Source of the DNA: an uncultured delta proteobacterium
Lineage (GTDB): Bacteria; Desulfobacterota; Binatia; JACPRU01
Assembly: GCA_963745025.1 (NCBI GenBank)
Contig: CAVUWD010000016.1
Span: 768,001-832,000 of the forward strand
Length of the DNA: 64,000 bases
Direction of reading: 5' to 3'
The position numbers and the translations under genes were made by a program. The first letter of the stretch is position 1, and each line of letters starts with the position of its first letter. Of this stretch, positions 2,264-17,537 are shown one piece after another. The notes under the pieces are model-generated. The model saw only the letters and a program-made list of their open reading frames with translations. It had not been told where the DNA came from and did not search any database.

Positions 2264-2283
2264 CGGTTTCGGTCCGCTCCGGC

Positions 2284-3037
2284 TCAGATCGCGGACAACT
2301 GCTGCAGGGTATTGCGCAGCGTGCCGGCGTCGAGATCGCGAATGATCTTTCCCTCGCGCACGAGCGAAATCTTCCCCTCCTCCTCCGACACGACCACGAC
2401 GACGGCGTCGGTTTCCTCGGTGAGGCCGATGGCGGCGCGGTGCCGTGTGCCGAGTGTCCTCGAGACGTTCGGATTCCCGGTGAGCGGCAAGAAGCAGCCG
2501 GCGGCGGTGATTCGGCCGTGCTGAATGATCACCGCACCGTCGTGGATCGGCGACGTCGGCGAAAAGATCCGACTGCAGGAGCTCGCGACTGACCCGCGCG
2601 TCGAGCGGTGTGCCCACCTCGATGTACTCGTTCAGGTTCGACATCGCGCTCGAACACGATGAGCGCCCCGATCCTCTTGCGTCGCCAGGAGCACGGCCGA
2701 GCGCACGATCTCCTCGAGCACCTGCCCCTGGGCGACTCGCTCCCCCGCGGAGAACGAGCGCCGCGCACCGACCTGGGTCAGTGCGCGGCGGATGTCGTTC
2801 TGGAAGATCACGACGACGACGAGGATGATCGAGGCGAGAAAGTTGGACAGCACCCAGTTCAGCGTGTTCAGCTCGAAGTACTGCGAGGCGAGGTAGGTCG
2901 CGAAGACGATCAGGAAGCCGATCAGCATCTGGGCCGCGCGCGTGCCGCGGATCAGGTTGATCACGTGGTACGCGATGAAGGCGATGATCGAGATGTCGAC
3001 GACGTCCGAGATCCGCCAGAGGAAACGTCATTGTCGA

Positions 3038-3041
<4 letters not shown>
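2284..3041 (-). CDS. cdaA: Diadenylate cyclase CdaA (frameshifted)
   Basis: LIRGTRAAQML TM region, IFQNDIRRAL, HDGA, GCFLPL, GTRHRAAIGLTEETDA motifs. Confidence 0.92.
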
Positions 3042-5781
<2,740 letters not shown>

Positions 5782-5865
5782 ATTCTCCTCCACCGAGAAC
5801 CGTAACACATAGCATTTTCTGCGGCAACGCATGGCATCGCCGCATGGCATCGCCCGGGATGTCAC

Positions 5866-7212
5866 TCAGCGCACGCGGCGGACCTCGACGACGAGAACGC
5901 GACGCGTCGCGGAGGCAACCGACGCGCGTTCGTCGCGTGCCAGACCGGGCACCCAGAGGATCGCGCCGCCGCTTTCCAGAACGAGCCACGAGCAGCGCTC
6001 CACCCGGGGCACCTTGGCATCGACGAAGACGTCCTGGAGCTTCTTCGTTCCGCCGAGACCGAGCGGACGCAGCCGATCGCCCGGGCGCGGATTGCGCATC
6101 CGGATCCGCGCTCCGTCGAGCGCGGTGAGATCGAAGACCGCACGCCACGGTCCGGGACGCACCCGACGCGCCGACGTTCGCGTCTCGACCCGCCAGCCGG
6201 GGACGCTCACCGTACCCTCGCGCGGCAGCGTCTGCGCAAAGCCGCGCGCGTGCGTCGCGGGCAGGTTCCAATGCAACCGTCCCCCGCTGCGCGTCACCGA
6301 TCCACCGGGGAGAGCGACGCTCTTGCCGTCTCCACGCTCCGCCGCCAGATCTCGCAGCCGCTCCACGTGATGGAGCTCGATGGCGCGGAGATTACCGCGC
6401 GAAGACACGAGCCAGCGGCGGAGCATCCGACGCTGGAGCGCGGCCGGCGCGCGACGCAGGAGCGCGCACTCGAGACCAAGCGCCGGGTCACTGCGACTGC
6501 GTCGCCGCGCTGAGCCCTCCAGCACGGCTTCGTCGTCTCGCGAGAGCTCGGCCAGCCGTGCGAGGGCGACCCGGATGGCGGGATTGAAGTCGCGCTCGAG
6601 AAGCGGCAGCAGACGATGGCGGATACGGTTGCGCGTGAAGCGACCGACCGCGTTCGAGCGGTCGACGCGGTAGCGACGCTTCCGCTTCTGCAAGTAGGCC
6701 AGCACCTCGGTGCGGGAGACGTCGAGAAACGGCCGGATCACGCCATCGGCACGCTTCGGCTGGATGCCGCCGAGGCCGCCGATGCCCGCGCCGCGAATGA
6801 GACGATGAAGCACGGTCTCGGCCTGGTCGTCGAGCGTGTGCCCGGTGGCGATACGGCGGAATCGCTCGCGGGCGGCGACTGCGAGCAATGCCTGATACCG
6901 CGCCTCGCGCGCCCGCTCCTCGAGATTCGCCCGTCCCGTGATCCTCGCGTCGACGGCGTGGAACTCGCAGCCGAGACGCGCGGCGAGGCACGCGACGAAG
7001 GCTTGGTCGCGATCGGAATCGCGCCCGCGCAGGTGGTGATTGACGTGAGCGACGCCCACCCGCCGCGACCCGCCATCCAGCTCGGTCAGCGCGGCGAGGA
7101 GCGCGACGGAGTCTGGCCCACCCGATACCGCCACCAGCACCGAGTCATCCGCCTCGAGAAGCGAATGGCGCCGGATCGAGCGTGCGACCTTGCGGAGAAC
7201 CGGGTCGTTCAT
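5866..7212 (-). CDS. tilS: tRNA(Ile)-lysidine synthetase
   Basis: VAVSGGPDS, ATGHTLDDQAET, IRPFL, C-terminal GDRLRPLGLGGTKKLQDVF. Confidence 0.93.
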   Translation of the reverse strand: MNDPVLRKVARSIRRHSLLEADDSVLVAVSGGPDSVALLAALTELDGGSRRVGVAHVNHHLRGRDSDRDQAFVACLAARLGCEFHAVDARITGRANLEERAREARYQALLAVAARERFRRIATGHTLDDQAETVLHRLIRGAGIGGLGGIQPKRADGVIRPFLDVSRTEVLAYLQKRKRRYRVDRSNAVGRFTRNRIRHRLLPLLERDFNPAIRVALARLAELSRDDEAVLEGSARRRSRSDPALGLECALLRRAPAALQRRMLRRWLVSSRGNLRAIELHHVERLRDLAAERGDGKSVALPGGSVTRSGGRLHWNLPATHARGFAQTLPREGTVSVPGWRVETRTSARRVRPGPWRAVFDLTALDGARIRMRNPRPGDRLRPLGLGGTKKLQDVFVDAKVPRVERCSWLVLESGGAILWVPGLARDERASVASATRRVLVVEVRRVR

Positions 7213-7308
7213 GGGCGTCTCCAGAGTCCTCTGGCGCGGCCGAGGAGGCAAGGATGGCAAGGATGGCGGCTTGCGGGATTCGCTGCGGGGCGGTATTTTC
7301 CCTCGATC

Positions 7309-7968
7309 GTGCGCGTGCTTTTGTTGTCGCTGCTGTTGAGCGTTCCGGTCATCGCCGCGGAGAACCCGGAGCTCCCGGCCGGCCTTCCACCGACGCGAAG
7401 CGCCGACGAGCGCCGCGCGGTGCTCGAGCTGATGAAGCAGAACCGTCAGAAGTACGGCGAGGATGCCGCTCTTCTGCAGGGCTTGCTGCTTACCCACGCG
7501 CTACAGGGTGAAGCCGTCCTGACCACGGAATCGACGATCGTCGGGTTCGAAGAGCACGAGGGCCACAAGTACGTCACGTTCCGCCTTGCCAGTGGCATCG
7601 TCCTCAACGACAAGTCGCTCGATCGCGAGCAACGGCTCGAGCGCATCTGGCACCTCATCCTCGAACGAACCCTCCTCCGCTATCCGAAGTTCAGCGCGCC
7701 CGCCGACGGTGTGGCGATCGAGATCGAGTACAGCCATCGCCCGTACCAACAGCTCGACGACCTCTACAACGAGACCGACGATACCGGCACGGTCGAGCGC
7801 GCGAAGTTCTACATGCTTTCCTCCGACCTGACCGAGCTTCTCGCTCACCAGCTCGGAACGCAGGACTTCCTCGAGCGCTCGCGCGTCTTGGTCGACAATC
7901 AACCGGCAAAGCTCCGGCTCATGGAAGTGTCGCTGCCGCCGCGACCGCCGACCGCCGAGCGTCGCTGA
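7309..7968 (+). CDS. Hypothetical secreted protein, divergent from tilS
   Basis: GTG start, signal-peptide-like VRVLLLSLLLSVPVIAA, globular composition, ~219 aa. Confidence 0.7.
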   Translation: MRVLLLSLLLSVPVIAAENPELPAGLPPTRSADERRAVLELMKQNRQKYGEDAALLQGLLLTHALQGEAVLTTESTIVGFEEHEGHKYVTFRLASGIVLNDKSLDREQRLERIWHLILERTLLRYPKFSAPADGVAIEIEYSHRPYQQLDDLYNETDDTGTVERAKFYMLSSDLTELLAHQLGTQDFLERSRVLVDNQPAKLRLMEVSLPPRPPTAERR

Positions 7969-8144
7969 TCGGGCGGCGACCGCCCCAGCGCACGACCCGC
8001 CGCGCCTCGACTCTCGAAGCATCCTCCCGTTCCGCCGCCGAGCGCCAGTCCTTCAAGAGCTACGGAGCGCTGCTCGAGTGCGCCTAGCCACTCGAGCCGG
8101 CAAGCCCCTGGACAGACGCACGAGCGTCCGGTAGCCCACTGATT

Positions 8145-8191
8145 TCAAGCGCGGCGGCGTAGCTCAGGTGGCTAGAGCGAGGGTCTCATAA
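8145..8191 (+). repeat. Orphan 5' half of tRNA-Met plus 8 bp of leader (left junction of element A)
   Basis: 47 bp tcaagcgcggcggcgtagctcaggtggctagagcgagggtctcataa identical to 13584-13630; diverges right after the anticodon loop. Confidence 0.95.
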
Positions 8192-8326
8192 GACAACCCG
8201 AGCCGCGCCGCTCGTGTATCACCGAGAGATATTGAGAGCGATAAGCCGCAATCTATCAGGCTTTCCGCTCCGTCGATAAATACCGCGTCACTTCTCATCG
8301 CACTCGATATTCGCGCTTATCAGTGT

Positions 8327-8341
8327 CGAACAACTACCCGA
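8327..8341 (+). repeat. Putative integrase arm-type site of element A (second copy 13528-13542)
   Basis: cgaacaactacccga occurs inside both ends of element A in direct orientation. Confidence 0.6.
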
Positions 8342-8398
8342 TCGGGGCGAACTAGAGCCGGGGGGTCGCTGGCTCCAAGGTAGGCAATCGTTGCCTGC

Positions 8399-8698
8399 TT
8401 GACGCAGCGGGCTCCTCTGCGGTTCTATTGCCCGTTGAGCCTTCACTTCCTTCGCGCCGAGCACCATGAAGTTTCTCGGTCAACCGCCGAGCAACGACTC
8501 TGGACTGCGGCCCTCCGCGACGCACTGAAAATCTGCCGCGGCGAAACGCCCGCTTCGAACGACGACAGGCGAAGAGCTATGGCCTGGATCGCTCGCAGGT
8601 CGGACGACGTGGCTAGTTTCGACTGGTGCTGCCGCGCGCTTGGGATCGAGCCTGCCGCTGCGCATGCCTGCCTCGGTGAGCAATGGTCCAAGGCGTAG
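8399..8698 (+). CDS. Small helical hypothetical protein (start uncertain)
   Basis: EQRLWTAALRDA...AMAWI...SFDWCCRALGIEP looks like a conserved uncharacterised family. Confidence 0.55.
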   Translation: MTQRAPLRFYCPLSLHFLRAEHHEVSRSTAEQRLWTAALRDALKICRGETPASNDDRRRAMAWIARRSDDVASFDWCCRALGIEPAAAHACLGEQWSKA

Positions 8699-8770
8699 GC
8701 AAGGACCACCTATACCTGTCCAACCGACCGGTCCTCGCGCCTTCCGAACCTTCCGCCAGGCTGTGCTGTC

Positions 8771-9073
8771 CTAGTTCGGCCCGGAGTGTCCTAGTTTGAC
8801 GGGTGGAGTGTCCTGCTTTGCGAGGCGGGGATCGTCGCTAGCGATACATAACGCCCAGCTCTCTGCACCACGTGCGGCTTTCGTCGGGCACTTGCTGTCC
8901 AGGTATTTACGCATCTGCGTCTGATCGGCCATGCACTTTTCCGCCGAATCGTAACTGCTCCTGATATCCCACTTCGATAACGGTACGCTGAGAACGACTT
9001 TCGCCTTGTGGATAGGAGGCGTCGTTAAGTACCACCCGAGAAGGGCGAGCGCGGCGACGTGGCGACGGATCAT
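8771..9073 (-). CDS. Small secreted hypothetical protein
   Basis: Signal-like MIRRHVAALALLGWYL; SYDSAEKC and CIASDDPRL motifs. Confidence 0.65.
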   Translation of the reverse strand: MIRRHVAALALLGWYLTTPPIHKAKVVLSVPLSKWDIRSSYDSAEKCMADQTQMRKYLDSKCPTKAARGAESWALCIASDDPRLAKQDTPPVKLGHSGPN

Positions 9074-9645
9074 GCCGACAAGCCTAGCACTCGAGCTGGG
9101 TTTCGTCTCCTCAGAACAAACCCCTATCCGGTAGGTTCACGGGCGCGGTATCCCAATTTGCCCAGCGGGTGTCCTACTTAGGACAGCCCCAGGCTGAGCG
9201 CGTCGCTCCGTGGGCGATTGAAGCCGGAGCGGCACGCCGAAGGTGCTGCCGCCGATCACGGTCAACGGAGTAGGTTTTCGCCGCCTCAACATTGCTCGAG
9301 ACGGCGGAGGGCGGGTTGCTGGTGCGCGGGTAGCGTCGCAGATTTTCGACCGCATGAGGGGTTTCCCTTATTGGCGGAACGCACCACCTGCGGTAAAGCG
9401 ACGCCACTTCTGCCCTGGCGGGGGGCAGGATGACAGAGCGATCCGCTCATCATGCCCCCCGCCACCCCGCCCGCGTAGTTGAAGAGGCGGGCAACCCTTA
9501 CCTTTTATCACCGAGGCACGACAGCATGATCCTCGTCATCTCCATCGGCCTGGGCCTTCGCGATTGCTTCCGAACCTTGCGTCCGCGAACCCGCCGCGCG
9601 AGCGACGCTCCGCGAACGAGTGAAACCGGGGCGGCGCCATGAAGA

Positions 9646-10038
9646 ATGCTACCGCCTCACGTCGTAGAGGTCGCCTACGGGCTCTACTCGTGCGAGCGCG
9701 GCTACTTCATCCGGCAAGGCCAGTGCATCCCGTTCGAAGAGATCCCGCACGGACCCGTCGTCGAGGTCTCGAGCCTGCCCTCGGCCGGCGACGGGGCGCC
9801 AGGAACTTGTCCGAGCGGCGGCTGCGGCTCTTTCGCGGCGCCCTCCTTTGACCTTGGCGGCCATCGGAGATTCTATCTCGCGAGCCAACGCGACGAGTGC
9901 GCCCGCGATCACCGAGAGCAGCAGCCACCCGAGCCACGTCGAGCACCCGCCGCAGGCGAGGGTCTTCCGGTAATAGAGCCCACCGCGGCCCGCGGCGACG
10001 TAAGGCCCGCCATCGGCCCGCTACTGTGTCCCACCTAG
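9646..10038 (+). CDS. Hypothetical Cys-containing protein (boundaries uncertain)
   Basis: YSCERGYFIRQGQCIPFEE...CPSGGCG looks coding; the 3' part is doubtful. Confidence 0.4.
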   Translation: MLPPHVVEVAYGLYSCERGYFIRQGQCIPFEEIPHGPVVEVSSLPSAGDGAPGTCPSGGCGSFAAPSFDLGGHRRFYLASQRDECARDHREQQPPEPRRAPAAGEGLPVIEPTAARGDVRPAIGPLLCPT

Positions 10039-10311
10039 GCCGGGCGGTAGTGATTTTGGCACCGGTGTCCCGCTGGCGCGTGCTCTGGCCTTGTCCATCT
10101 CGTCTATCGTGTCACGAGCGGCGTTAGGCGTGGGCTTAGGCGTGCCCGGTCTTTGCCGACGTCCGGAGCCCGCAGGGGATTGCCCAATTCCGCTTGAATT
10201 AGTGAAGGTTCCGGGCGCCTCCGGAATCTGAGCGAGGGCGACGCCCCGTGAAGGCGTGTTGGCAGCCGCCAGCGTGAGCACCATTGCCAGTGGGACACTT
10301 TTGAATCTCAT
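10021..10311 (-). CDS. Small secreted protein, tandem paralogue 1
   Basis: Signal peptide then AQIPEAPG...ARDTIDE...RASGTP; GGAGG before the ATG. Confidence 0.7.
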   Translation of the reverse strand: MRFKSVPLAMVLTLAAANTPSRGVALAQIPEAPGTFTNSSGIGQSPAGSGRRQRPGTPKPTPNAARDTIDEMDKARARASGTPVPKSLPPGLGGTQ

Positions 10312-10380
10312 GGTTGCCTCCTTCTCCCACGCGCGAGGCGTGGCTTGCTCGAAGCCGTCGCCGAACATCGCGTTGCTCAG

Positions 10381-10701
10381 TCAAAACTTTGGTGTCGGCT
10401 CTGGCTCCGGTGTACCGCTGGCCCGTTCCCTGGCCCTTTCAAATTCGTCGATCGTGTCACGAGCGGGGTCGGGCGCGGGTTCGTTGGATTTAGGCGTCGC
10501 CCATTTTTTTGGAGGGCGCTTTGTCTTGAAATCGCCGCCGCCCTCGCCGTCGTCACTCAACCCGCCCCCGGCTGAATCTGAGAAGCTTCCGGGCGCCTCC
10601 GGAATCTGAGCGACGGCGATGCGCTGTGAAAGCGGGTTGAGCGCCGCAAGGGCGACCATCGTTGCCAGTAGATAGAAACGCCCCACACTCCTGAATCTCA
10701 T
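10381..10701 (-). CDS. Small secreted protein, tandem paralogue 2
   Basis: Signal peptide then AQIPEAPG...ARDTIDE...RASGTP; GGAGG before the ATG. Confidence 0.7.
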   Translation of the reverse strand: MRFRSVGRFYLLATMVALAALNPLSQRIAVAQIPEAPGSFSDSAGGGLSDDGEGGGDFKTKRPPKKWATPKSNEPAPDPARDTIDEFERARERASGTPEPEPTPKF

Positions 10702-10797
10702 CGTAAGATACCTCCCCCCCACGTGCCAGGCGTCGCCTGCTCGAAGCCGTCGCCGAACATCATGGCACCTATCACTTCCCCCGGTTCTTCTCGCGGA

Positions 10798-11335
10798 TCA
10801 CTGCTCCGCTACGGGGACCACGTCCCACGTGATCCGATAGTCCGGCGCGTCCCAGCCGAGCACCTCGAAGGAGAACGTGCCCTGCGCGCCAGGGACCAAG
10901 GTCGACGGCGCCACAGCCTGACACCGGCGCCCATACTCGATACAGATCTGCACGCCGTAGACGGGGAACTCGGCGCCGTTCGCCACTGTGCCCTCGAACA
11001 ACCGGCCGTTTCGGTACTGCTTCACCACCCATGCTCTGGATAGCGACCGCGGTGATCTCCCTGCGGCGCTCAAGTTCCTTTTCCCTCGCCGCGTCTGCCG
11101 CTGCCCTGGCCGCCTCCTCTGCCGGCGGCGCTGGCGTAGGCGTCGCCAAGAACTCGCCCGGTTTCCACGATGAGCCAGCCTCGCCGCCGGTACTCGGCCG
11201 CACGCTCCCGACCGGAACACAATCCTCCGGCGGCGTCGGCCCGACGTACAGGCTGCCGTCGCGCTTCTTGCACTTCGCCATCTCGGCGTTGGCGATCGTG
11301 GCCGCCGCGAGCACTATCGTCACGAGCCCCTTCAT
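10798..11335 (-). CDS. Secreted hypothetical protein (DUF4124-like N-terminus, beta-sandwich-like C-terminus; frameshift near 11030)
   Basis: MKGLVTIVLAAATIANAEMAKCKKRDGSLYVGPTPP continues as FEGTVANGAEFPVYGVQI...LVPGAQGTFSF in another frame. Confidence 0.55.
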
Positions 11336-11693
11336 GGTGGAGTGCCTCATCGAAGGGTTCGGTGGCCTCCTTCTCGCGCAGCCTCGCTCCAAGAAAGGTA
11401 AGAGCATGGCGACCACCAAAAGCTAGTCCCGACGAGGTTCCCAGAGCCCTTGCTTGCCGCGCTCCCAATCGAGTACCCAGCCGGCGACGCTACCGGGCTT
11501 TGTCTCGGGCGCCAGTATTTCGCTCTGGATCTCGCTCAAGCTCCTGCCTGCCTTCCACAGCGCGAATGCCGGCTCCTTGCTCTATCTCCCTTGGGCATGA
11601 CCGACCTCCAGTCCTCTCGGATCTACGGGGTGCCGAGACGGAGTCGGTTTAGCTCATCCGGCACGACAAGCTCAAAGACTTGCCCGGCCACGT

Positions 11694-12900
11694 TTAGACG
11701 TTCAACTGCACGCCCGCAGACCGCACGCGCCTCTGCGGCGGGAGATTCTGCTCGCTAGGCCGGATCGTGCCGACCTTCATCCCATTGGCAAGCGACGCCA
11801 GACGCTCGGACTCGCGAGACAGCGATAGACCCATCGACAGCAAGCCCGCGAGCGCGGCGACGTTCAGAACCTTGCAGTCGAGCGCCTCGTTCCGCGCCCG
11901 CGTCTTCACCCAGATCCGCCGCGGATGCCCGTGGTGGTATTTCGTGATGACCTTCTCGCTCGTCAGTTGCTCGAAGTACTCGACGTCGTAGTGATCGGGG
12001 AAGTGAAAGCTCGCCGGCTGCCCGATCGGCAACCGCAGGCGCGCGAAGATCAGCTCCTTCGCGGAGTCCACGCCGATCAGGAAGAGCGGCACCTTGCCGA
12101 CGTTGTTTCGCGTCGGCTTCCGCGGCCAGACCGGCCTCGATCCGCCCACACCTTTCGTCGCCCACACGCGCCGGCCGAAGCGCTCGCGAGCGAAGCTGTA
12201 CACGGCCTGGGTGAAGTCGCCCATCGCGTCGCAGCACGCCGCCGCGACCGGGAGCACGCCGCCGTCCGCGCGCCTTCTCTGTTCAAGCAGTAGCGCGTCG
12301 AGATCCCGCCACGATGTGTTCGTCGACGGATCGCCGCGGATCGTTCTGAAGTCGAGCGACCAGCATTGCTCGGACGAATCCCACCCGCAGAACTCGACCT
12401 CGAGCCTGTCGTCCTGCGTGTCGATTCCGGCCGTGATGACCACCACACCAGCAGGAACTTCTGGGCCATAGAGTGCTCGCGCCGGGAAAGCAGGCTCGTC
12501 TCGTCGAATTGCTCGCCCTTCTCCTCGTAGGTCTCCCCGAGACTCAACGTCACAAACGTTTTCAACTGTTCCGGGTAGTCCTTCGCCTGCAAGAACATCG
12601 TCGCGAGCTCGGCGAGCTTCACCCACGGCGAGTACAGCGCCGAGAGATGAAAACCGGCCGTGCCGTTGAAAGGCCGCCGCACGCCACGTCCCGAGGTGCA
12701 CCGCGGCGAGCCGCTGGTCGTCGTTCCACTTCGCGCCGCAGGACTCGCAGCGGTAGGTGGCCGTCTCGGGCAGGTGGTTGCCGCTCTCGCTCTTGTCCCA
12801 CTTGATCTGAGCCCATCGAAGCGCCTGCTCGTGCACGCAGGCGCCGCACGGCACGTGATAGCGTCTCTGGTCGCTTGTCTCGAAGGCCGCCTCGATCCGG
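11694..12900 (-). pseudogene. Lambda GpA-like terminase large subunit, C-terminal part
   Basis: RIEAAFETSDQRRYHVPC, GFHLSALYSPW, ITAGIDTQDDRLE, LIGVDSAK, YFEQLTSE, RNEALDC; N-terminus missing. Confidence 0.9.
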
Positions 12901-13038
12901 GCGGATGAGGTGGACCACTTCAGGCCGAGCGCGGGCAGCGAGGGCGATCCGATCGAGTTAGCCAAGCGGCGCACGTCGAATTTCTGGAACAGAATGCACA
13001 TTCTGACGAGCACGCCGACGATCAAAGGCGAGAGCCGG
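12897..13038 (+). pseudogene. Inverted fragment of the same terminase (Walker B region)
   Basis: Plus strand encodes ADEVDHFRPSAGSEGDPIELAKRRTSNFWNRMHILTSTPTIKGESR, which normally precedes IEAAFE. Confidence 0.85.
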
Positions 13039-13164
13039 TCGGGACAGCGGGCGAAAAGAGACCTTCGGAGGGTGCGGAAGAGATCCTCGCGCAGGATCTC
13101 GACGTAGATGATCACGGTGCCGCTCCCGACGACCGCTCGCTCATGGAACACGCCGTCATCGTCG

Positions 13165-13581
13165 ACACAAAAAAGGCCGGGATATCTACCTGCCCGCGGA
13201 AGTACGCGCCGTGCTCGAGGTGCAATGGACCGAACGCCAGGCGAATTACCCGGCCTGCTCGCTCGTCTTCCACCATGGCGGCGAACGGATCTTGTCGTTC
13301 TACAAGGCCTGGTATAAGGCCTGCGATTCGGCAGGGGTCGGGAAGAAAGTACCGCACGACTTCCGACCGGAGCGCGGTCCGGAACATGGTCCGGGCGGGA
13401 ATCGCGGAGCGGGCTGCGATGGAGATGGCAGGACACAAGACGAGGGCGATCTTCGACCGCTACCACATCGTCAGCAACGGCGATCTAACGGGAGGCGGCG
13501 AAGCGCCTGGATGCGGCTTTGAGCTCGCGAACAACTACCCGAGGCACCGAAACGACAGGCGAGCCCGAAATTATCCACTAA
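13165..13581 (+). pseudogene. Tyrosine integrase C-terminal remnant of element A
   Basis: FYKAWYKAC...PHDFR / SAVRNMVRAG...AGHKTRAIFDRY catalytic motifs across frameshifts; stops 10 bp before the tRNA. Confidence 0.88.
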
Positions 13582-13591
13582 AATCAAGCGC

Positions 13592-13665
13592 GGCGGCGTA
13601 GCTCAGGTGGCTAGAGCGAGGGTCTCATAATCCCTAGGTCCGTGGTTCGAGTCCACGCGCCGCCA
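13592..13665 (+). tRNA. tRNA-Met (CAT), probably elongator
   Basis: Cloverleaf GGCGGCG-TA-GCTC...GAGC-G-AGGGT-CTCATAA-TCCCT...CGTGG-TTCGAGT-CCACG-CGCCGCC-A; paired G1-C72 argues against initiator; Ile2 not fully excluded. Confidence 0.93.
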
Positions 13666-14440
13666 TGATTTTTCCACCGTCTTTGCTGCATCTTTTTCCG
13701 TAGCGTCGCCGCCCGAAAGATGACTGAGTTGGTTAGGTTGCGCGGGGGTTGCGGACGGTTGCGGCCCCTCGGCCGCCTTCGGAGGGGCGATCGAGTCGAG
13801 CCGGTCCGCGCCGCTGCGGTCGCTCGTCGGGATCCACCGGCCGTAGATGTCGACCGTAATTTGGATCGAGGAGTGCCCGAGCTGGTCCTTCACCCACGCG
13901 AGGCTTCGGCCGTCCTGAATGTGCAGGACGGCGAACGTGTGCCGCAGGTCGTGAATCCGCCGATGCCGGAGCCCTAGCTTTCGGAGAAGCGGCGCCCACA
14001 CGTTTCGCCGGAAGGCATCGCCGTCGAGGCGGCCGCCGTCCCGGTCGATGAACACCCACGCGGAAGGATCGAGCGCGCGGGCGCACTCCGCGGCGGCTGC
14101 CTCCCGGGCTCTTGCGGCCTCGGCCTTGAGCACCTCGGCGAGCCCCGCGGACATCTCGACCGAGCGGGCCTTCCCGCTCTTCGGGGTTGTCATCCGCCCT
14201 CCGGTGAAATTCCGCTCCACGCGAAGCGTCCGGTTGTGGAAGTCGAGATCGCCCCATTGGAGCGCAATCGCCTCCCCGAGGCGGAGCCCCGTCCGCGCGA
14301 GCGTGAGGATGAACGGGAAGAAGTGCCGGCGCGAGTCAGGCTTCCCGAGCTTCGTCGGCCAGTCGCGCGAGAGAGCGAGCGCGGCCGAAAGCTCCTCGGC
14401 CGAAAGCGGGTCGGCCTGCTTCTTGATGTCGTCGCGAGCC
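13603..14440 (-). pseudogene. Tyrosine integrase of element B, catalytic domain only; 3' end runs antisense through the tRNA
   Basis: LARTGLRLGEAIALQWGDLDF, TPKSGKAR, IHDLRHTFA, LGHSSIQITVDIY; N-terminal domains absent. Confidence 0.9.
13736..13764 (+). repeat. Putative arm-type sites of element B (GGTTGCG x3; 20 bp copy at 15158-15177)
   Basis: ggttgcgcgggggttgcgga identical at 13736-13755 and 15158-15177; units spaced 10-11 bp apart. Confidence 0.7.
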
Positions 14441-14518
14441 CGCAGCGCCGCACTTCATGCAGAAGTTGGCGCTCGTCGGTATTGGAGCACCACATTTGTC
14501 ACAAGGGTTGAAAGCCAC
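14440..14518 (-). pseudogene. Zinc-ribbon gene 5' fragment joined to the integrase remnant
   Basis: CDKCGAPIPTSANFCMKCG followed by an abrupt switch to integrase sequence. Confidence 0.6.
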
Positions 14519-14544
14519 CGATTGGAGCCTCGTCGCCTCGCGGG

Positions 14545-14742
14545 TCAGCTCGGGGCCGCGGGGCGCTTACGCATCGAAGTCTCGACGCGGACTACGTCCG
14601 ACAGGCGCGTCCCGCTTTGCATACCGGAACGTAACGCACCACAAGCCGGACAAAATTGATCGCGATCCATCATACCCCGATGGATGCAAGAGGGCTTTCG
14701 CTGTAGTTCCAGCCAGCGTGAAATGAATGTTCGGAGCTTCAT
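14545..14742 (-). CDS. Small hypothetical protein with CxxC
   Basis: 65 aa, strong AAGGAGGTG ribosome-binding site, FCPACG. Confidence 0.5.
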   Translation of the reverse strand: MKLRTFISRWLELQRKPSCIHRGMMDRDQFCPACGALRSGMQSGTRLSDVVRVETSMRKRPAAPS

Positions 14743-14887
14743 GCTGTCACACCTCCTTTGCTAACGGCTCAGGCCACTCTGGCCGTTCCAGCGAATTCAG
14801 CATATTGCGCTTTTGGCTGCCGGGCCTTGTTGCGAATTGACAATCCATTGTCTAAACGCGCCAAGGTAGCACGCGTTGAAGCACGCA

Positions 14888-15076
14888 ATGTCGAAACAAA
14901 TCGTTTTCACCGCGCCCCCTCGGTGCTCTTGCGGAGCGCCTGCGGATCGGTCGAAGCTCACGATCTGTGATGCCTGCGCTCGAAATCTACTCGATCAAGC
15001 CCGGTCCCGACGGGCTCGCGCGCATCACAACACGCCGACTCGGCGAGACCGTTCAGGCGAAAATCTGATGACTTAG
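14888..15076 (+). CDS. Small putative zinc-finger protein
   Basis: RCSCG...ICDAC; divergent from the 14742 ORF. Confidence 0.45.
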   Translation: MSKQIVFTAPPRCSCGAPADRSKLTICDACARNLLDQARSRRARAHHNTPTRRDRSGENLMT

Positions 15077-15249
15077 GCTGGTTCTTCGACGGTGGGCAAA
15101 CTTTTTAGCAATCCTGCGCCTTAGACCTTTCTCGGCGCCTCTCAACGCGTGGCTCCTGGTTGCGCGGGGGTTGCGGATTTGTGGCTCTCGGGGCCCCTCG
15201 ACGGCGAAAAAAGCCTAGAAAACTCCGCGATGGCGGGCAGTTTTTCGCC

Positions 15250-15293
15250 TCTCATAATCCCTAGGTCCGTGGTTCGAGTCCACGCGCCGCCAT
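15250..15293 (+). repeat. Orphan 3' half of tRNA-Met (right junction of element B)
   Basis: tctcataatccctaggtccgtggttcgagtccacgcgccgccat identical to 13623-13666. Confidence 0.95.
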
Positions 15294-15435
15294 TTACTCT
15301 TCTCCGGCAGCTCGACTGTGCTTCCGCATCGGCGCCAGCTGCCACGCCGCCGATGCGCGCGATCAGTTCGCCCCTCTTGAAGCCGTCCCCGTGCGCGGCA
15401 CCCTCCGGGCGGATCTCCGATGGACGAACTATCGA

Positions 15436-16137
15436 TCAGCGCCGCCCGCCCCAGCGGTTCCAGTACGTCACGTCGGTGGCGGGGAACCGCCGTGCCGGCC
15501 GGACATCCCCGCCCTTCAGCCACGCGACCGGTAGCAGCGCCGCCTGCGTATAGCTCTCCGGAATGCCGAGCACGTCGGCCGTCTCCTGCTCGTGAAGGAG
15601 TGTGAACGTCGTCCACGCCGAAGCAATCCCCCGCGCGCGCAGCGCGAGCATCAGCGACCAGGTCGCCGGAAGGATCGAGCCCCACATCGATGCCTGTGTG
15701 AACACGTCCTCGTGCGCGAATCGCCCCGCGATGCACGGAATCAGGTGGACCGGGACGCGATGGAGGTTCTCGATCAGGTGCACCGCCGACTTCACGATCG
15801 CGGGCAGTCGTCGCTGACGAGGATCGTCGGCCGCGTACTGCCGCGCGACGCTCATGCCGGTTCGCGAGAGCCCCGTCTTTCCCTGGAGGTAGAGCTCGGA
15901 GCCCTTGCGGTAGATGTCCGCGAGCTTCGCGCGAAGACCGGCGTCCGTGACGACGAGGAATCGCCAATCCTGCGAGTTCGCTCCCGTCGGCGCCTGCAAC
16001 GCGACGTCGATCGCCTCCTCGATCAGCGCCTCGGGCACCGGCCGCGCGAGGTCCAGCCGGAGCCGAACGCTGCGCGTCGTCTTCATCACGTGATCGACGC
16101 TCGCGACGTCGATCCGACCGACAGTTTCGTTCGTCAT
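15436..16137 (-). CDS. Nitroreductase family protein
   Basis: TTRSVR, ALQAPTGANSQDWRFLVV, LMLALRARGIASAWT. Confidence 0.88.
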   Translation of the reverse strand: MTNETVGRIDVASVDHVMKTTRSVRLRLDLARPVPEALIEEAIDVALQAPTGANSQDWRFLVVTDAGLRAKLADIYRKGSELYLQGKTGLSRTGMSVARQYAADDPRQRRLPAIVKSAVHLIENLHRVPVHLIPCIAGRFAHEDVFTQASMWGSILPATWSLMLALRARGIASAWTTFTLLHEQETADVLGIPESYTQAALLPVAWLKGGDVRPARRFPATDVTYWNRWGGRR

Positions 16138-16331
16138 CTCTGCTCCTTCCTCGGCGGCGCCGCTGCGCGAGAATCAGTCGTCGCCCCAGATCCCTCTGAT
16201 GGACGCATTCCGTGGTGTGAGACCGGTTTCATCGCCTTGCCACCGCGACGTCGTTGACCGCGAGGCGAAAAAAGCCTTCGTGGAAGCAGATGGGTTCGAA
16301 GTCCCCGGGCACTCCGCGCCGTCACGCCGGG

Positions 16332-17537
16332 TCAGATCGCCTGCCGCGCGCGGAGCCCGGCGATCTCGTCCCAGCCGTAGCCGAGCTCGAGGAGGATCTC
16401 CTCGGTGTGCTGGCCGTGCTCGGGCGGCGTCCCGGTGGGCTCGAGCGGCGTGTCCTCCATGGTGATCGGGTTCCCGGCGAGCGTCACCTCGCCCGCCTCC
16501 GGGTGGTGGATGGTCGTGAGATAGCCGTTGAGCCGCGCCTGCTCGCTCGCCAGAATGTCGAGGTAACCTTCGACGCGCGTGGCCAGGATGTCCGCGCCGT
16601 TCAAGAGCTCGAGCCACTCCGCCGTGGTGCGGGTCGGGAAGATCCCGTCCAGGACCTTCTCGATCTTGTCACCGTAAAAGTTCCGGGTCACGTTGTCGCA
16701 CTGCGGATCGTCCCGCAGATGCTCGATACCGAGGAGCTTGCAGAAGGTGGGCCAGCGCTTGTCGTCGCATCCGGCAAGGCAGAGCCAGCCGTCCTTGGTG
16801 CGGAACGCACCCCAGACGCCGTGGAGAAGCTGGTGGCCGCGGCCGGCGCGCGGCGTCTCCCTGCCGGCGAACGACGCGTAGGCGAGCTCGAAGGCCTGCA
16901 TGGCAATCACCGTCCCATAGATGCTCGCGCCGACCTTCTGGCCCTTCCCTGCGCGTTCGCGCGCGTAAAGCGCCGCCAGGACGCTGGCGGCGAGGGCCAG
17001 GGCGGCGTTCGTGTCGGCGACCGTGGCGCCGGCCGGTAGAGGCGGATTTTCCGCAAGGCCGGTCTTCCCCATCAGGCCGCCCGCCGCCTGCGCGAGCGTG
17101 TCGCGGCTCGGGCGGAGCTTCCACGGGCCCGTCGGTCCCCACGACGAGCCCTGCGCGTAGACGAGGCGCGGGTGGCGGACGGAGAGCTCTTCGTACGAAA
17201 AGCCCAGTCGATCGAGGACCCCCGGCCGGTAGTTCGTGAGGAGCACGTCGGCGCGCGCGAGGAGCCGCCGGAGGATCTCCTTCCCCTCTTCCATCTTGAG
17301 GTCGAGCGTGATGCTCCGCTTGCCGCGATTCATAGCGAGAAAGTACGGGCTCACGTGCCCGGCGCGCACGCCCGGGAAGAACGTATCGGCGCGCAGGAAG
17401 CGCGAGAGGTCGCCGGTCTCGCGGTTCTCGACCTTCACGACGTCGGCGCCCATGTCAGCGAGGTACAGCGCGGCGTACGGTCCCTGTATCTCCTGACCGA
17501 TCTCGACGACTTGGATGCCCGCAAGCGGTCCCGCCAT
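16332..17537 (-). CDS. CaiB/BaiF family III CoA transferase
   Basis: GPLAGIQVVE, LADMGADVVKVE, NRGKRSITLDLK, GQHTEEIL. Confidence 0.92.
   Translation of the reverse strand: MAGPLAGIQVVEIGQEIQGPYAALYLADMGADVVKVENRETGDLSRFLRADTFFPGVRAGHVSPYFLAMNRGKRSITLDLKMEEGKEILRRLLARADVLLTNYRPGVLDRLGFSYEELSVRHPRLVYAQGSSWGPTGPWKLRPSRDTLAQAAGGLMGKTGLAENPPLPAGATVADTNAALALAASVLAALYARERAGKGQKVGASIYGTVIAMQAFELAYASFAGRETPRAGRGHQLLHGVWGAFRTKDGWLCLAGCDDKRWPTFCKLLGIEHLRDDPQCDNVTRNFYGDKIEKVLDGIFPTRTTAEWLELLNGADILATRVEGYLDILASEQARLNGYLTTIHHPEAGEVTLAGNPITMEDTPLEPTGTPPEHGQHTEEILLELGYGWDEIAGLRARQAI

What the first reader, a model, noticed from the sequence alone, without database searches (positions are those of the whole stretch)
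8145..15293. tRNA-Met rebuilt from two mobile elements: opposite-geometry double integration at one anticodon loop
Seen: an orphan 5' half (8153-8191), an intact tRNA (13592-13665) and an orphan 3' half (15250-15293). All three share only the loop core tctcataa. Joining the two orphan halves at that core gives a perfect tRNA. Two different tyrosine-integrase remnants point inward at the intact copy. Inference: element A supplied a new 5' half and element B a new 3' half, so the working tRNA contains no original host DNA and both host halves are stranded. Established: most tRNA-targeting islands replace the 3' part, and tandem arrays usually stack on that side. The site stays reusable from both sides. 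With both integrases decayed, the inner ends of both elements would be locked in if this is the only elongator tRNA-Met.
Basis: partly seen in the sequence, partly recalled or inferred. Interest (0 to 1): 0.85.

Follow-up and report, generated by a model that had tools for sequence, protein, structure and literature searches.

The report
tRNA-Met sandwiched between two decayed islands
The genome's apparently only elongator methionine tRNA gene sits between two broken mobile elements that entered the same anticodon-loop site from opposite sides, so the working gene is built from element-borne halves while both original halves lie stranded nearby; this is a neat, recurring combination of known integration modes, not a new mechanism.

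Summary
The intact tRNA-Met(CAT) lies at 13592-13665. An exact 47-bp copy of its leader plus 5' half lies at 8145-8191. An exact 44-bp copy of its 3' half lies at 15250-15293. The two copies overlap only in the loop core TCTCATAA.

The stranded 5' half keeps the ancestral tilS-side flank, as in a same-genus relative whose single tRNA-Met is intact. Element A (8192-13583) is a prophage stump: a broken gpA terminase and the last ~30% of an integrase reading into the tRNA's 5' end. Element B (13667-15249) holds the C-terminal half of a different integrase converging on the tRNA's 3' end. Each element carries its own private repeat near both of its ends.

Of 29 loci with IntA's nearest relatives, 16 show the same reversed geometry. 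Displaced 5' halves were found in 3 of 9 cases checked. Reversed geometry is already known: 159 of 3919 Islander islands. Integrases on both sides of one tRNA recur at 3-4 of 39 related places. Overall this is a modest new variant of a known kind.

The parts
5869..7497 (-). tilS (tRNA-Ile lysidine synthetase). This is the conserved left neighbour of the tRNA-Met locus.
   Evidence: Pfam ATP_bind_3 6.9e-47, TilS_C 2.4e-14, TilS 8.1e-12. tilS and this tRNA-Met lie on one contig in G001, G002, G006, G007 and several more distant class members.
8145..8191 (+). Stranded host 5' half of tRNA-Met (tRNA positions 1-39 at 8153-8191) with 8 nt of native leader. It ends with the core TCTCATAA and forms attL of element A.
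   Evidence: 47/47 identity to 13584-13630. Window 8105-8191 matches the region upstream of and into the single intact tRNA-Met of G001 at 91%.
8192..8341 (+). Left arm of element A. It ends with the 15-nt motif CGAACAACTACCCGA (8327-8341).
   Evidence: 71% identity to the sequence that follows the orphan 5' half in G007. The motif is exact only at 8327 and 13528 in the whole genome, and G007 has two tandem exact copies at the homologous place.
8342..11696 (.). Cargo or remnant region of element A. It holds ORFs with no family match, including two paralogous small ORFs (10024-10380 -, 10384-10797 -) and a 216-aa ORF (10775-11422 -).
   Evidence: No Pfam or PHROG hits. Repeat families D1, D2 and D5 show the duplication. 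10391-10762 has a 69% match inside the B-like element of G006.
11697..12905 (-). Remnant of a gpA-type terminase large subunit. It lacks the N-terminus and is split between two reading frames.
   Evidence: Pfam GpA_nuclease 1.5e-65 (profile 71-284) and GpA_ATPase 4.8e-19 (only profile 178-247 of 247) in one frame. GpA_nuclease profile 1-67 falls in another frame. phrog_15 terminase 1.7e-101.
13184..13520 (+). IntA remnant: the C-terminal ~112 residues of a tyrosine integrase with one frameshift near 13366-13368. It reads towards the 5' end of the tRNA.
   Evidence: tblastn aligns 13184-13366 (frame 2) and 13368-13520 (frame 3) to residues 235-346 of the 369-aa L028 protein at 61-69% identity. 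L028 and both L034 proteins have Pfam Phage_integrase plus SAM-like domains.
13528..13591 (+). Right arm of element A. It holds the second copy of the 15-nt motif (13528-13542) and the element-borne tRNA leader (13575-13591), which matches the native leader at 14 of 17 positions.
   Evidence: (D3, D17).
13592..13665 (+). Intact tRNA-Met(CAT). Positions 1-31 come from element A, the core 13623-13630 is shared, and positions 40-74 come from element B.
   Evidence: ARAGORN. It is the only CAT tRNA in the assembly that is neither initiator-like nor Ile2-like.
13714..14454 (-). IntB remnant: the catalytic C-terminal half of a different tyrosine integrase. It converges on the 3' end of the tRNA. The N-terminal ~180-200 residues are absent.
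   Evidence: Pfam Phage_integrase 2.7e-22. phrog_1 integrase 3.6e-43. tblastn to residues ~180/240-410/441 of 437-454-aa open frames. 64% identity to the G006 copy.
13736..13755 (+). Element B arm motif GGTTGCGCGGGGGTTGCGGA, left copy.
   Evidence: Exact only here and at 15158 in the whole genome. G006 has a 2-mismatch copy at the homologous place.
14339..14760 (-). Zinc-ribbon ORF pieces in two frames inside element B.
   Evidence: Pfam Zn_Ribbon_1 1.4e-07 for 14339-14566. No hit for 14548-14760.
15158..15177 (+). Element B arm motif, right copy.
   Evidence: (D12).
15250..15293 (+). Stranded host 3' half of tRNA-Met (positions 32-74 plus 1 nt). It starts with the core TCTCATAA and forms attR of element B.
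   Evidence: 44/44 identity to 13623-13666. Synteny with G001 resumes 154 nt further on, at 15447.
15439..16137 (-). Nitroreductase-family gene, the right host flank.
   Evidence: Pfam Nitroreductase 3.2e-17.

Best explanation
Two unrelated integrative elements, each driven by its own tyrosine integrase, recombined with the same attB: the anticodon loop of the host's single elongator tRNA-Met gene next to tilS.

Element B used the classic geometry. Its attP carried a copy of the tRNA from the loop to the 3' end. Integration therefore left an intact gene at its left junction and pushed the host's own 3' half to its far end (15250-15293).

Element A, a phage with a gpA-type terminase, used the reversed geometry. 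Its attP carried leader plus tRNA positions 1-39. Integration therefore left an intact gene at its right junction and pushed the host's own 5' half, with its native upstream region, to its far end (8145-8191).

After both events the expressed gene consists of an A-borne 5' part, the shared 8-bp crossover core and a B-borne 3' part. Both elements then decayed. A shrank to 5.4 kb with a truncated, frameshifted integrase. B shrank to 1.6 kb with an integrase lacking its N-terminal half.

Shown: the repeats, the flank homologies, the integrase remnants and their orientation, the private arm motifs, and the same geometries in relatives.

Inferred: the order of events (unknown), that the 15-nt and 20-nt motifs are arm-type integrase binding sites, that the A-borne upstream region drives transcription, and that the integrases are now inactive.
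For: - Exact 47-bp and 44-bp partial copies overlap only in TCTCATAA.
- Same-genus G001 has one intact tRNA-Met. Its upstream flank matches the flank of the orphan 5' half (window 8105-8191, 91%), in line with tilS synteny over 2283-7983. The intact copy's similarity to G001 extends only 5 nt upstream of the tRNA (13587).
- G007 has an orphan 5' half, and no tRNA by ARAGORN on that contig. It is followed by a homologue of A's left arm, including the motif.
- G006 has an IntB homologue (64% aa) directly after its tRNA-Met and a displaced 3' half 3.4 kb on. G002 has a stray 3' half on another contig.
- Motif A (15 nt) is exact only at 8327 and 13528 in 5.65 Mb. Motif B (20 nt) is exact only at 13736 and 15158. 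So the end at 8192 pairs with the end at 13591, and the end at 13667 pairs with the end at 15249.
- Of the 29 best loci for an IntA piece in 401 genomes of the class, 16 have a tRNA just past the integrase stop in the same orientation, 7 are convergent and 6 have no tRNA.
- Displaced 5' halves ending just past the anticodon loop were found in 3 of 9 such cases fetched: G319 (two, in tandem), G074 and G316.
- Of the 29 best IntB loci, 16 are convergent (classic), 12 have no tRNA, and 1 has a distant co-oriented tRNA.
- In G000 itself this is the only 5' fragment, against 26 rows of 3' fragments.
- Islander Table 1 lists 159 islands with a 5' tDNA fragment against 3760 with a 3' fragment, and 2083 anticodon-centred sites (passages seen).
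Against: - No relative with an empty 3' side was found. G001 carries a different Phage_integrase fragment right after its tRNA. The ancestral status of the orphan 3' half therefore rests on position, on synteny resuming at 15447, and on the family's geometry.
- Both orphans are still 100% identical to the intact gene although both elements are heavily deleted. This needs either recent integration followed by fast deletion, or gene conversion.
- One cargo ORF of A (10391-10762) has its only relative inside the B-like element of G006, so the contents of A may be mosaic.
- The genome is a metagenome-type assembly (92.65% complete, 7.6% contamination). No independent contig bridging any of the four junctions was found.
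- No sigma-70-like promoter was detected upstream of either copy.
- Expression of the intact tRNA is not shown.
Confidence: 0.85

Rival explanations
1. One composite element spanning 8192-15249, carrying its own complete tRNA-Met, inserted into the host tRNA's anticodon loop and split it without repair. The internal tRNA would be cargo that compensates for the loss.
For: The outermost junctions share only the 8-bp core, like a short att core or target duplication. Phages often carry tRNA genes (general knowledge).
Against: The end at 8192 shares its private motif with 13528, and the end at 15249 shares its motif with 13736. The two outer ends do not share a motif with each other. Both integrase remnants abut the internal tRNA and point at it. 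B-like and A-like elements occur singly at this tRNA in G006 and G007. An internal tRNA 100% identical to both host halves would be a coincidence.
Confidence: 0.04
2. Assembly artefact: a metagenome bin joined pieces of different strains or elements through the shared tRNA sequence.
For: The genome has 7.6% contamination by marker genes. No bridging contigs were found in four public runs.
Against: The repeats are only 44-47 bp and the contig is 1.14 Mb. Synteny with G001 continues on both outer sides. The same junction types exist in other assemblies: G007, G006, G319, G074, G316. That a 44-47-bp repeat is too short to mislead an assembler is inference, because the assembly method is unknown.
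Confidence: 0.05
3. Local duplication or rearrangement of tRNA pieces by processes other than site-specific integration, such as replication slippage or illegitimate recombination.
For: None specific.
Against: Both fragment boundaries fall exactly in the anticodon loop, the documented crossover class. The intervening DNA holds integrase and terminase remnants.
Confidence: 0.02

Closest known systems
Classic tRNA-targeting genomic islands and prophages with an anticodon-loop crossover (Islander 'A' sites with a displaced 3' tDNA fragment)
   Same: Element B has a tyrosine integrase next to the regenerated tRNA. It has a co-oriented displaced 3' fragment starting in the anticodon loop at its far end. 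Its relatives show the same arrangement at Ala, Arg, Lys, Met and Thr tRNAs.
   Different: Only 1.6 kb is left. The integrase lacks its N-terminal half. No cargo of known function remains.
Reverse-orientation integrative elements that displace the 5' part of the tRNA gene (Zhao & Williams 2002, J Bacteriol 184:859; Islander 'islands with 5' tDNA fragment')
   Same: Element A has its integrase 3' end facing the tRNA 5' end, a displaced 5' fragment that keeps the native upstream flank, and an element-borne leader.
   Different: I could not read Zhao & Williams. I saw only its title and how PMC6563490 cites it, so any comparison of details is recalled. Here the element is a terminase-bearing phage stump. 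Its integrase family includes both geometries at 55-65% identity.
Tandem arrays of islands at one tDNA (Islander: 125 tandems of 2 or more)
   Same: Repeated use of one attB, with one displaced fragment per element. G319 shows a true tandem of two elements on the 5' side.
   Different: Here the two elements lie on opposite sides of the regenerated gene instead of stacking on one side, so neither half of the working gene is the host's original.

Membership tests
Classic 3'-fragment tRNA-integrating element (element B) | Tyrosine recombinase gene adjacent to the regenerated tRNA | tested here: met
   Pfam PF00589 E 2.7e-22 on 13606-14454(-). phrog_1 3.6e-43.
Classic 3'-fragment tRNA-integrating element (element B) | Co-oriented displaced 3' tRNA fragment downstream, starting at a recognised crossover sublocation | tested here: met
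   44/44 copy at 15250-15293, starting with the anticodon loop.
Classic 3'-fragment tRNA-integrating element (element B) | A related genome with the site unoccupied on that side | tested here: inconclusive
   G001, G002 and G006 all have something on the 3' side of this tRNA. In G001, synteny resumes at window 15447.
Classic 3'-fragment tRNA-integrating element (element B) | Complete integrase (arm-binding or core-binding N-terminal part plus catalytic domain) | tested here: not met
   Only residues ~180/240 to the end of 437-454-aa homologous frames align. Nothing upstream of 14454 aligns. It is a remnant, not a live element.
Reverse-orientation (5'-fragment) tRNA-integrating element (element A) | Co-oriented displaced 5' tRNA fragment upstream, ending at a recognised crossover sublocation | tested here: met
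   47/47 copy at 8145-8191, ending with the anticodon loop.
Reverse-orientation (5'-fragment) tRNA-integrating element (element A) | The displaced fragment, not the intact gene, keeps the ancestral upstream flank | tested here: met
   Window 8105-8191 matches G001's tRNA upstream region at 91%, next to tilS synteny. The intact copy's similarity to G001 extends only 5 nt upstream of the tRNA (13587).
Reverse-orientation (5'-fragment) tRNA-integrating element (element A) | Integrase of the element lies at the tRNA-proximal end, and its relatives show the same geometry | tested here: met
   IntA remnant at 13184-13520(+). 16 of 29 best relatives' loci are co-oriented with a tRNA just downstream. 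Displaced 5' halves were found in 3 of 9 checked.
Reverse-orientation (5'-fragment) tRNA-integrating element (element A) | The element supplies a promoter for the regenerated tRNA | tested here: inconclusive
   The consensus scan finds no sigma-70-like site upstream of either copy. The A-borne leader matches the native one at 14 of 17 positions. No RNA data were available.
Prophage (element A) | Phage structural or packaging genes | tested here: met
   gpA terminase remnant, Pfam 1.5e-65 and phrog_15 1.7e-101. This is the only phage gene found. Six other ORFs had no PHROG hit.
Elongator tRNA-Met (as opposed to initiator or tRNA-Ile2) | Paired 1-72 end (not initiator-like), and not the lysidine-type tRNA-Ile(CAU) | tested here: inconclusive
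   ARAGORN draws a G1-C72 pair. C20:239914 has a C1/A72 mismatch. C20:147838c best matches features annotated tRNA-Ile in E. coli genomes (81.8% over 65 nt), whereas ours has no E. coli match. The identity rules themselves are recalled, not tested.

The most novel reading that the evidence does not exclude
In this bacterial class, single-copy essential tRNA genes may be routinely overwritten piece by piece, promoter-proximal half included, by integrative elements. One integrase family switches easily between 3'-replacing and 5'-replacing attP layouts. If so, the sequence and the upstream control region of a tRNA gene can be of wholly mobile origin, and tRNA genes could be homogenised horizontally across genera.

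Support so far: integrases or their remnants lie on both sides of one tRNA at 3 clear places and 1 weak place among 39 related places. G319 has two intact family members flanking its tRNA-Arg, with two stray 5' halves and one stray 3' half. Geometry is not clustered on the family tree.
Probability: 0.4. Interest if true: 0.55.

Novelty: new variant of a known kind. Interest (0 to 1): 0.4.

Why it matters
It gives a clean, sequence-level example that an essential single-copy tRNA gene can end up containing none of its original DNA outside an 8-bp core, and can sit behind a foreign leader, without being lost. That matters in three ways. First, tRNA gene trees and synteny need care, because the gene may be xenologous in both halves. 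Second, island-mapping software has to consider fragments on both sides of one tDNA. Third, for integrase engineering, closely related integrases here work with the tRNA-like extension on either arm of attP. It does not reveal a new recombination mechanism.

Tried and rejected
- **Six-frame Pfam scan.** I then scanned individual open frames.
- **Promoter scans.** Consensus scans upstream of the orphan and of the intact copy found nothing. The promoter question stays open.
- **E. coli comparison of the tRNA.** It gave no match. The other CAT tRNA did match tRNA-Ile features.
- **Public runs.** 20 holders were listed, all with small shares (0.20 or less), and no RNA holder was listed. I laid the contigs of X1-X4 on 6500-17000. 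Short pieces with zero differences lie inside A, B and the flanks, but no contig bridges any of the four junctions. The only listed joint (10990 to 14078, side 21, one contig, depth 2) is too weak to read. There is therefore no evidence either way on excision products or misassembly.
- **Integrase tree.** 20 of 29 sequences were kept. Seven were dropped because they did not span reference residues 215-335, and two because my frame pick gave no hit. The tree did not resolve whether reversed geometry arose once: 5 changes, as low in 63 of 500 shuffles, and only 3 starred branches.
- **Displaced 5' halves.** None was found for 6 of 9 reverse-geometry relatives (G189, G226, G133, G289, G060, G002). 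In four of these the contig ended after 2.6-16 kb.
- **Literature.** Zhao & Williams 2002 and Williams 2002 are not held. I saw only citations of them. Searches for an explicit description of islands on both sides of one tRNA, or of a tRNA rebuilt from two elements, found nothing relevant (and passages). Subscription papers and supplements are not covered, so this is not proof that it is unpublished.
- **My notebook entry 2** gave 17 convergent and 11 empty IntB loci. The recount is 16, 12 and 1.

Full report
**1. The observation**

ARAGORN finds two tRNAs in the window. One is tRNA-Met(CAT) at 13592-13665. I ran blastn of this tRNA with 30-nt flanks against the whole assembly (20 contigs, 5,646,070 bp; the window is C16:768001-832000).
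- It returns the gene itself.
- It returns a 47/47 match at window 8145-8191: 8 nt of leader plus tRNA positions 1-39.
- It returns a 44/44 match at 15250-15293: positions 32-74 plus 1 nt.
- Nothing else exceeds 21 nt.

The repeat finder gives the same pairs. It also shows that the 5' repeat continues upstream at 95% identity over 56 nt (8136-8191 against 13575-13630, D3 and D4). The two partial copies share only TCTCATAA (13623-13630), the anticodon loop plus one stem base.

**2. What lies between the copies**

*Left interval, 8192-13583 (element A).*
- It holds a gpA-type terminase large subunit on the minus strand.
- That gene lacks the first ~177 profile positions of its ATPase domain, and its domains are split between two frames. 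Pfam gives GpA_nuclease 1.5e-65 and GpA_ATPase 4.8e-19; phrog_15 gives 1.7e-101.
- On the plus strand there is the tail of a tyrosine integrase. 13184-13366 and 13368-13520 lie in different frames and align to residues 235-346 of a 369-aa homologue at 61-69% identity.
- That homologue, and two others, have Pfam Phage_integrase plus SAM-like N-terminal domains.
- The remaining ORFs of A have no Pfam or PHROG match.

*Right interval, 13667-15249 (element B).*
- It holds the catalytic half of a different integrase on the minus strand. Pfam Phage_integrase is 2.7e-22 and phrog_1 is 3.6e-43.
- It aligns only to residues ~180/240 onward of 437-454-aa homologous frames. Nothing upstream of 14454 aligns.
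- A zinc-ribbon ORF is broken over two frames.

Both are dead by truncation.

**3. Which copy is ancestral**

The real left neighbour is tilS (5869-7497, minus strand).

*The 5' side.*
- In same-genus G001, synteny runs through window 2283-7983.
- It is followed by a single intact tRNA-Met whose upstream region matches window 8105-8191 at 91%. That is the flank of the orphan 5' half.
- The intact copy's similarity to G001 extends only 5 nt upstream of the tRNA, to 13587.
- tilS and this tRNA are neighbours on one contig in G001, G002, G006, G007 and several more distant genomes of the class.
- So the locus tilS / tRNA-Met is old, and the orphan 5' half marks its original place.

*The 3' side.*
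- The evidence here is weaker. G001 has a different Phage_integrase fragment directly after its tRNA (1.1e-27), so its site is not empty.
- Synteny with G001 resumes at window 15447, which is 154 nt past the orphan 3' half.

**4. Two elements, not one**
- A 15-nt motif is exact only at 8327-8341 and 13528-13542 in the entire genome.
- A 20-nt motif is exact only at 13736-13755 and 15158-15177.
- Each interval thus has its own private repeat near both of its ends, in direct orientation. This is what the P and P' arms of one attP would leave. That they are arm-type integrase sites is inference.
- G007 has an orphan 5' half, and no tRNA by ARAGORN on that contig. It is followed by a homologue of A's left arm, with two tandem exact copies of motif A.
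- G006 has an IntB homologue (64% aa, one internal TGA) right after its tRNA-Met, a 2-mismatch copy of motif B at the homologous place, and a displaced 3' half 3.4 kb away.
- G002 has a stray 3' half on another contig.

These singly occurring relatives argue against one composite element that carries a cargo tRNA.

**5. Geometry in the integrase families**

*IntA.*
- A 68-aa piece of IntA hit 110 of 401 genomes sampled from the class.
- Of the 29 best loci, 16 have a tRNA just past the integrase stop in the same orientation: Met 4, Arg-CCT 5, Leu 3, Ser-TGA 2, Cys 1, Thr 1.
- A further 7 are convergent and 6 have no tRNA in the locus.
- For 9 co-oriented cases I fetched DNA on the element side. 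Displaced 5' halves of 40-44 nt, ending just past the anticodon loop, were found in 3: G319 (two, 5 kb and 34 kb upstream, a tandem on the 5' side), G074 and G316.
- None was found in the other 6, four of which were cut short by contig ends.

*IntB.*
- IntB hit 142 of 401 genomes.
- Of its 29 best loci, 16 are convergent on a tRNA 3' end, 12 have no tRNA, and 1 has a distant co-oriented tRNA.

*Within G000.* A scan of all 52 tRNAs against the genome gives 26 rows of 3' fragments, 10 internal matches and a single 5' fragment, which is this one.

**6. The sandwich recurs**

I looked on the far side of the tRNA in the 39 distinct tRNA-bearing places among these loci.
- An integrase or its remnant lies on both sides in G319 (tRNA-Arg), G246 (tRNA-Arg) and G211 (tRNA-Thr; here an IntB-family gene on the 3' side and an IntA-family gene on the 5' side).
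- There is a weak further case in G133 (tRNA-Leu).
- In G319 both flanking integrases are full length, 379-aa and 392-aa frames from the same family.
- The matching stray 3' half in G319 lies on another contig.

On a tree of 20 family members the geometry label needs 5 changes and is not significantly clustered (63 of 500 shuffles). Only 3 branches are well supported, so the number of switches is unresolved. Integrases 55-65% identical use either layout (blastp table).

**7. tRNA identity and copy number**
- The assembly has three CAT tRNAs.
- C20:239914 has a C1/A72 mismatch, so it is initiator-like by a recalled rule.
- C20:147838c best matches features annotated tRNA-Ile in E. coli genomes (81.8% over 65 nt). 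It also has C4-G69 and C5-G68, a recalled TilS determinant.
- The window's gene has G1-C72 and no E. coli match.
- By elimination it is the sole elongator tRNA-Met in an assembly that is 92.65% complete.

**8. Mechanism and consequences**

Both elements crossed over in the anticodon loop, the class that Islander calls 'A' sites (2083 of 3919 islands; passages seen). What differs is which arm of attP carries the tRNA-like extension.
- In B it is the arm that rebuilds the 3' part.
- In A it is the arm that rebuilds the leader and the 5' part.

The intact tRNA still holds a full attB, so it remains a target from both sides.

Recombination between 8145-8191 and 13584-13630, or between 13623-13666 and 15250-15293, would remove A or B precisely and leave an intact tRNA. 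This holds whether a related integrase acts in trans or homologous recombination does it (inference). Only imprecise deletions that touch the tRNA are excluded.

What drives transcription of the intact copy is open. No consensus promoter was found upstream of either copy. The A-borne leader matches the native one at 14 of 17 positions. No RNA data exist.

**9. Unresolved points**
- Both orphans are still 100% identical to the working gene, although both elements have lost most of their DNA. G006's orphan, by contrast, is only ~90% identical. Recent integration with fast deletion, or gene conversion, could explain this. I cannot tell which.
- One ORF in A (10391-10762) has its only detected relative inside G006's B-like element, so A's cargo may be mosaic.
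- No independent contig bridges the junctions, and the genome is a bin with 7.6% contamination. Misassembly therefore cannot be excluded formally. The same junction types in five other assemblies make it unlikely.

**10. Comparison with what is known, and verdict**
- Displacement of the 5' part is documented but uncommon. Islander lists 159 islands with a 5' fragment against 3760 with a 3' fragment, and 125 tandems.
- PMC6563490 cites Zhao & Williams 2002 and others for 5'-distal recombination (passage seen).
- I found no explicit description of one tRNA regenerated from two elements of opposite geometry in seven searches. The key older papers and all supplements were out of reach.

The elements are ordinary members of known kinds, and both are dead. 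The two-sided arrangement is a predictable but seldom-noted variant of tandem site reuse, and it recurs in this class. My scores: interest 0.4; novelty, new variant of a known kind; confidence in the explanation, 0.85.

Noticed in passing
window 5869-8191, and relatives: tilS, whose product must tell tRNA-Ile2(CAU) from tRNA-Met(CAU), is the divergently oriented neighbour of the elongator tRNA-Met gene. The pairing is kept on one contig in many genomes of the class.
   Followed up: partly
window 13592-13665: ARAGORN draws a T.T mismatch at the loop-closing pair of the anticodon stem. The same stem-loop sequence is present in all tRNA-Met copies aligned from five other genomes, so it looks like a conserved feature and not damage.
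   Followed up: no
window 13603-13713: The IntB reading frame stays open about 110 nt beyond where its homologues end. It runs antisense through the 3' half and anticodon loop of the tRNA before its stop at 13603.
   Followed up: no
window 10024-10797: Two adjacent paralogous small ORFs with signal-peptide-like starts (repeat families D1, D2, D5 at 79-91% identity). They have no family match. One has a 69% DNA match inside the B-like element of G006.
   Followed up: partly
G000 C8:51485-51531, C8:101608-101652, C8:149678-149721, C8:150319-150362, C7:133288-133334, C7:108191-108233, C19:28546-28587, C15:18130-18164: Eight dispersed 3' fragments of tRNA-Thr(CGT), far from that tRNA (C14:21439). 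They may be attP sites of extrachromosomal or mis-binned elements, or a repeated element.
   Followed up: no
G000 C16:632434-636922 (outside the window): tRNA-Arg(CCT) is followed by two exact 3' fragments at 634168 and 636881. This is a classic tandem of two small elements on the 3' side.
   Followed up: no
L013 (G001:C4) 9883-13100: G001 carries a different Phage_integrase fragment directly after its tRNA-Met, plus about 3.2 kb absent from the window, with no detectable displaced 3' half. G001 also lacks most of the nitroreductase gene (window 15636-16314).
   Followed up: partly
L034 (G319:C9:127099-130293), G319:C9:95036-100008 and G319:C26:15880-15923: This is a live-looking counterpart of the finding. 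Two full-length same-family integrases flank a tRNA-Arg(CCT), with two stray 5' halves upstream and one stray 3' half on another contig.
   Followed up: yes
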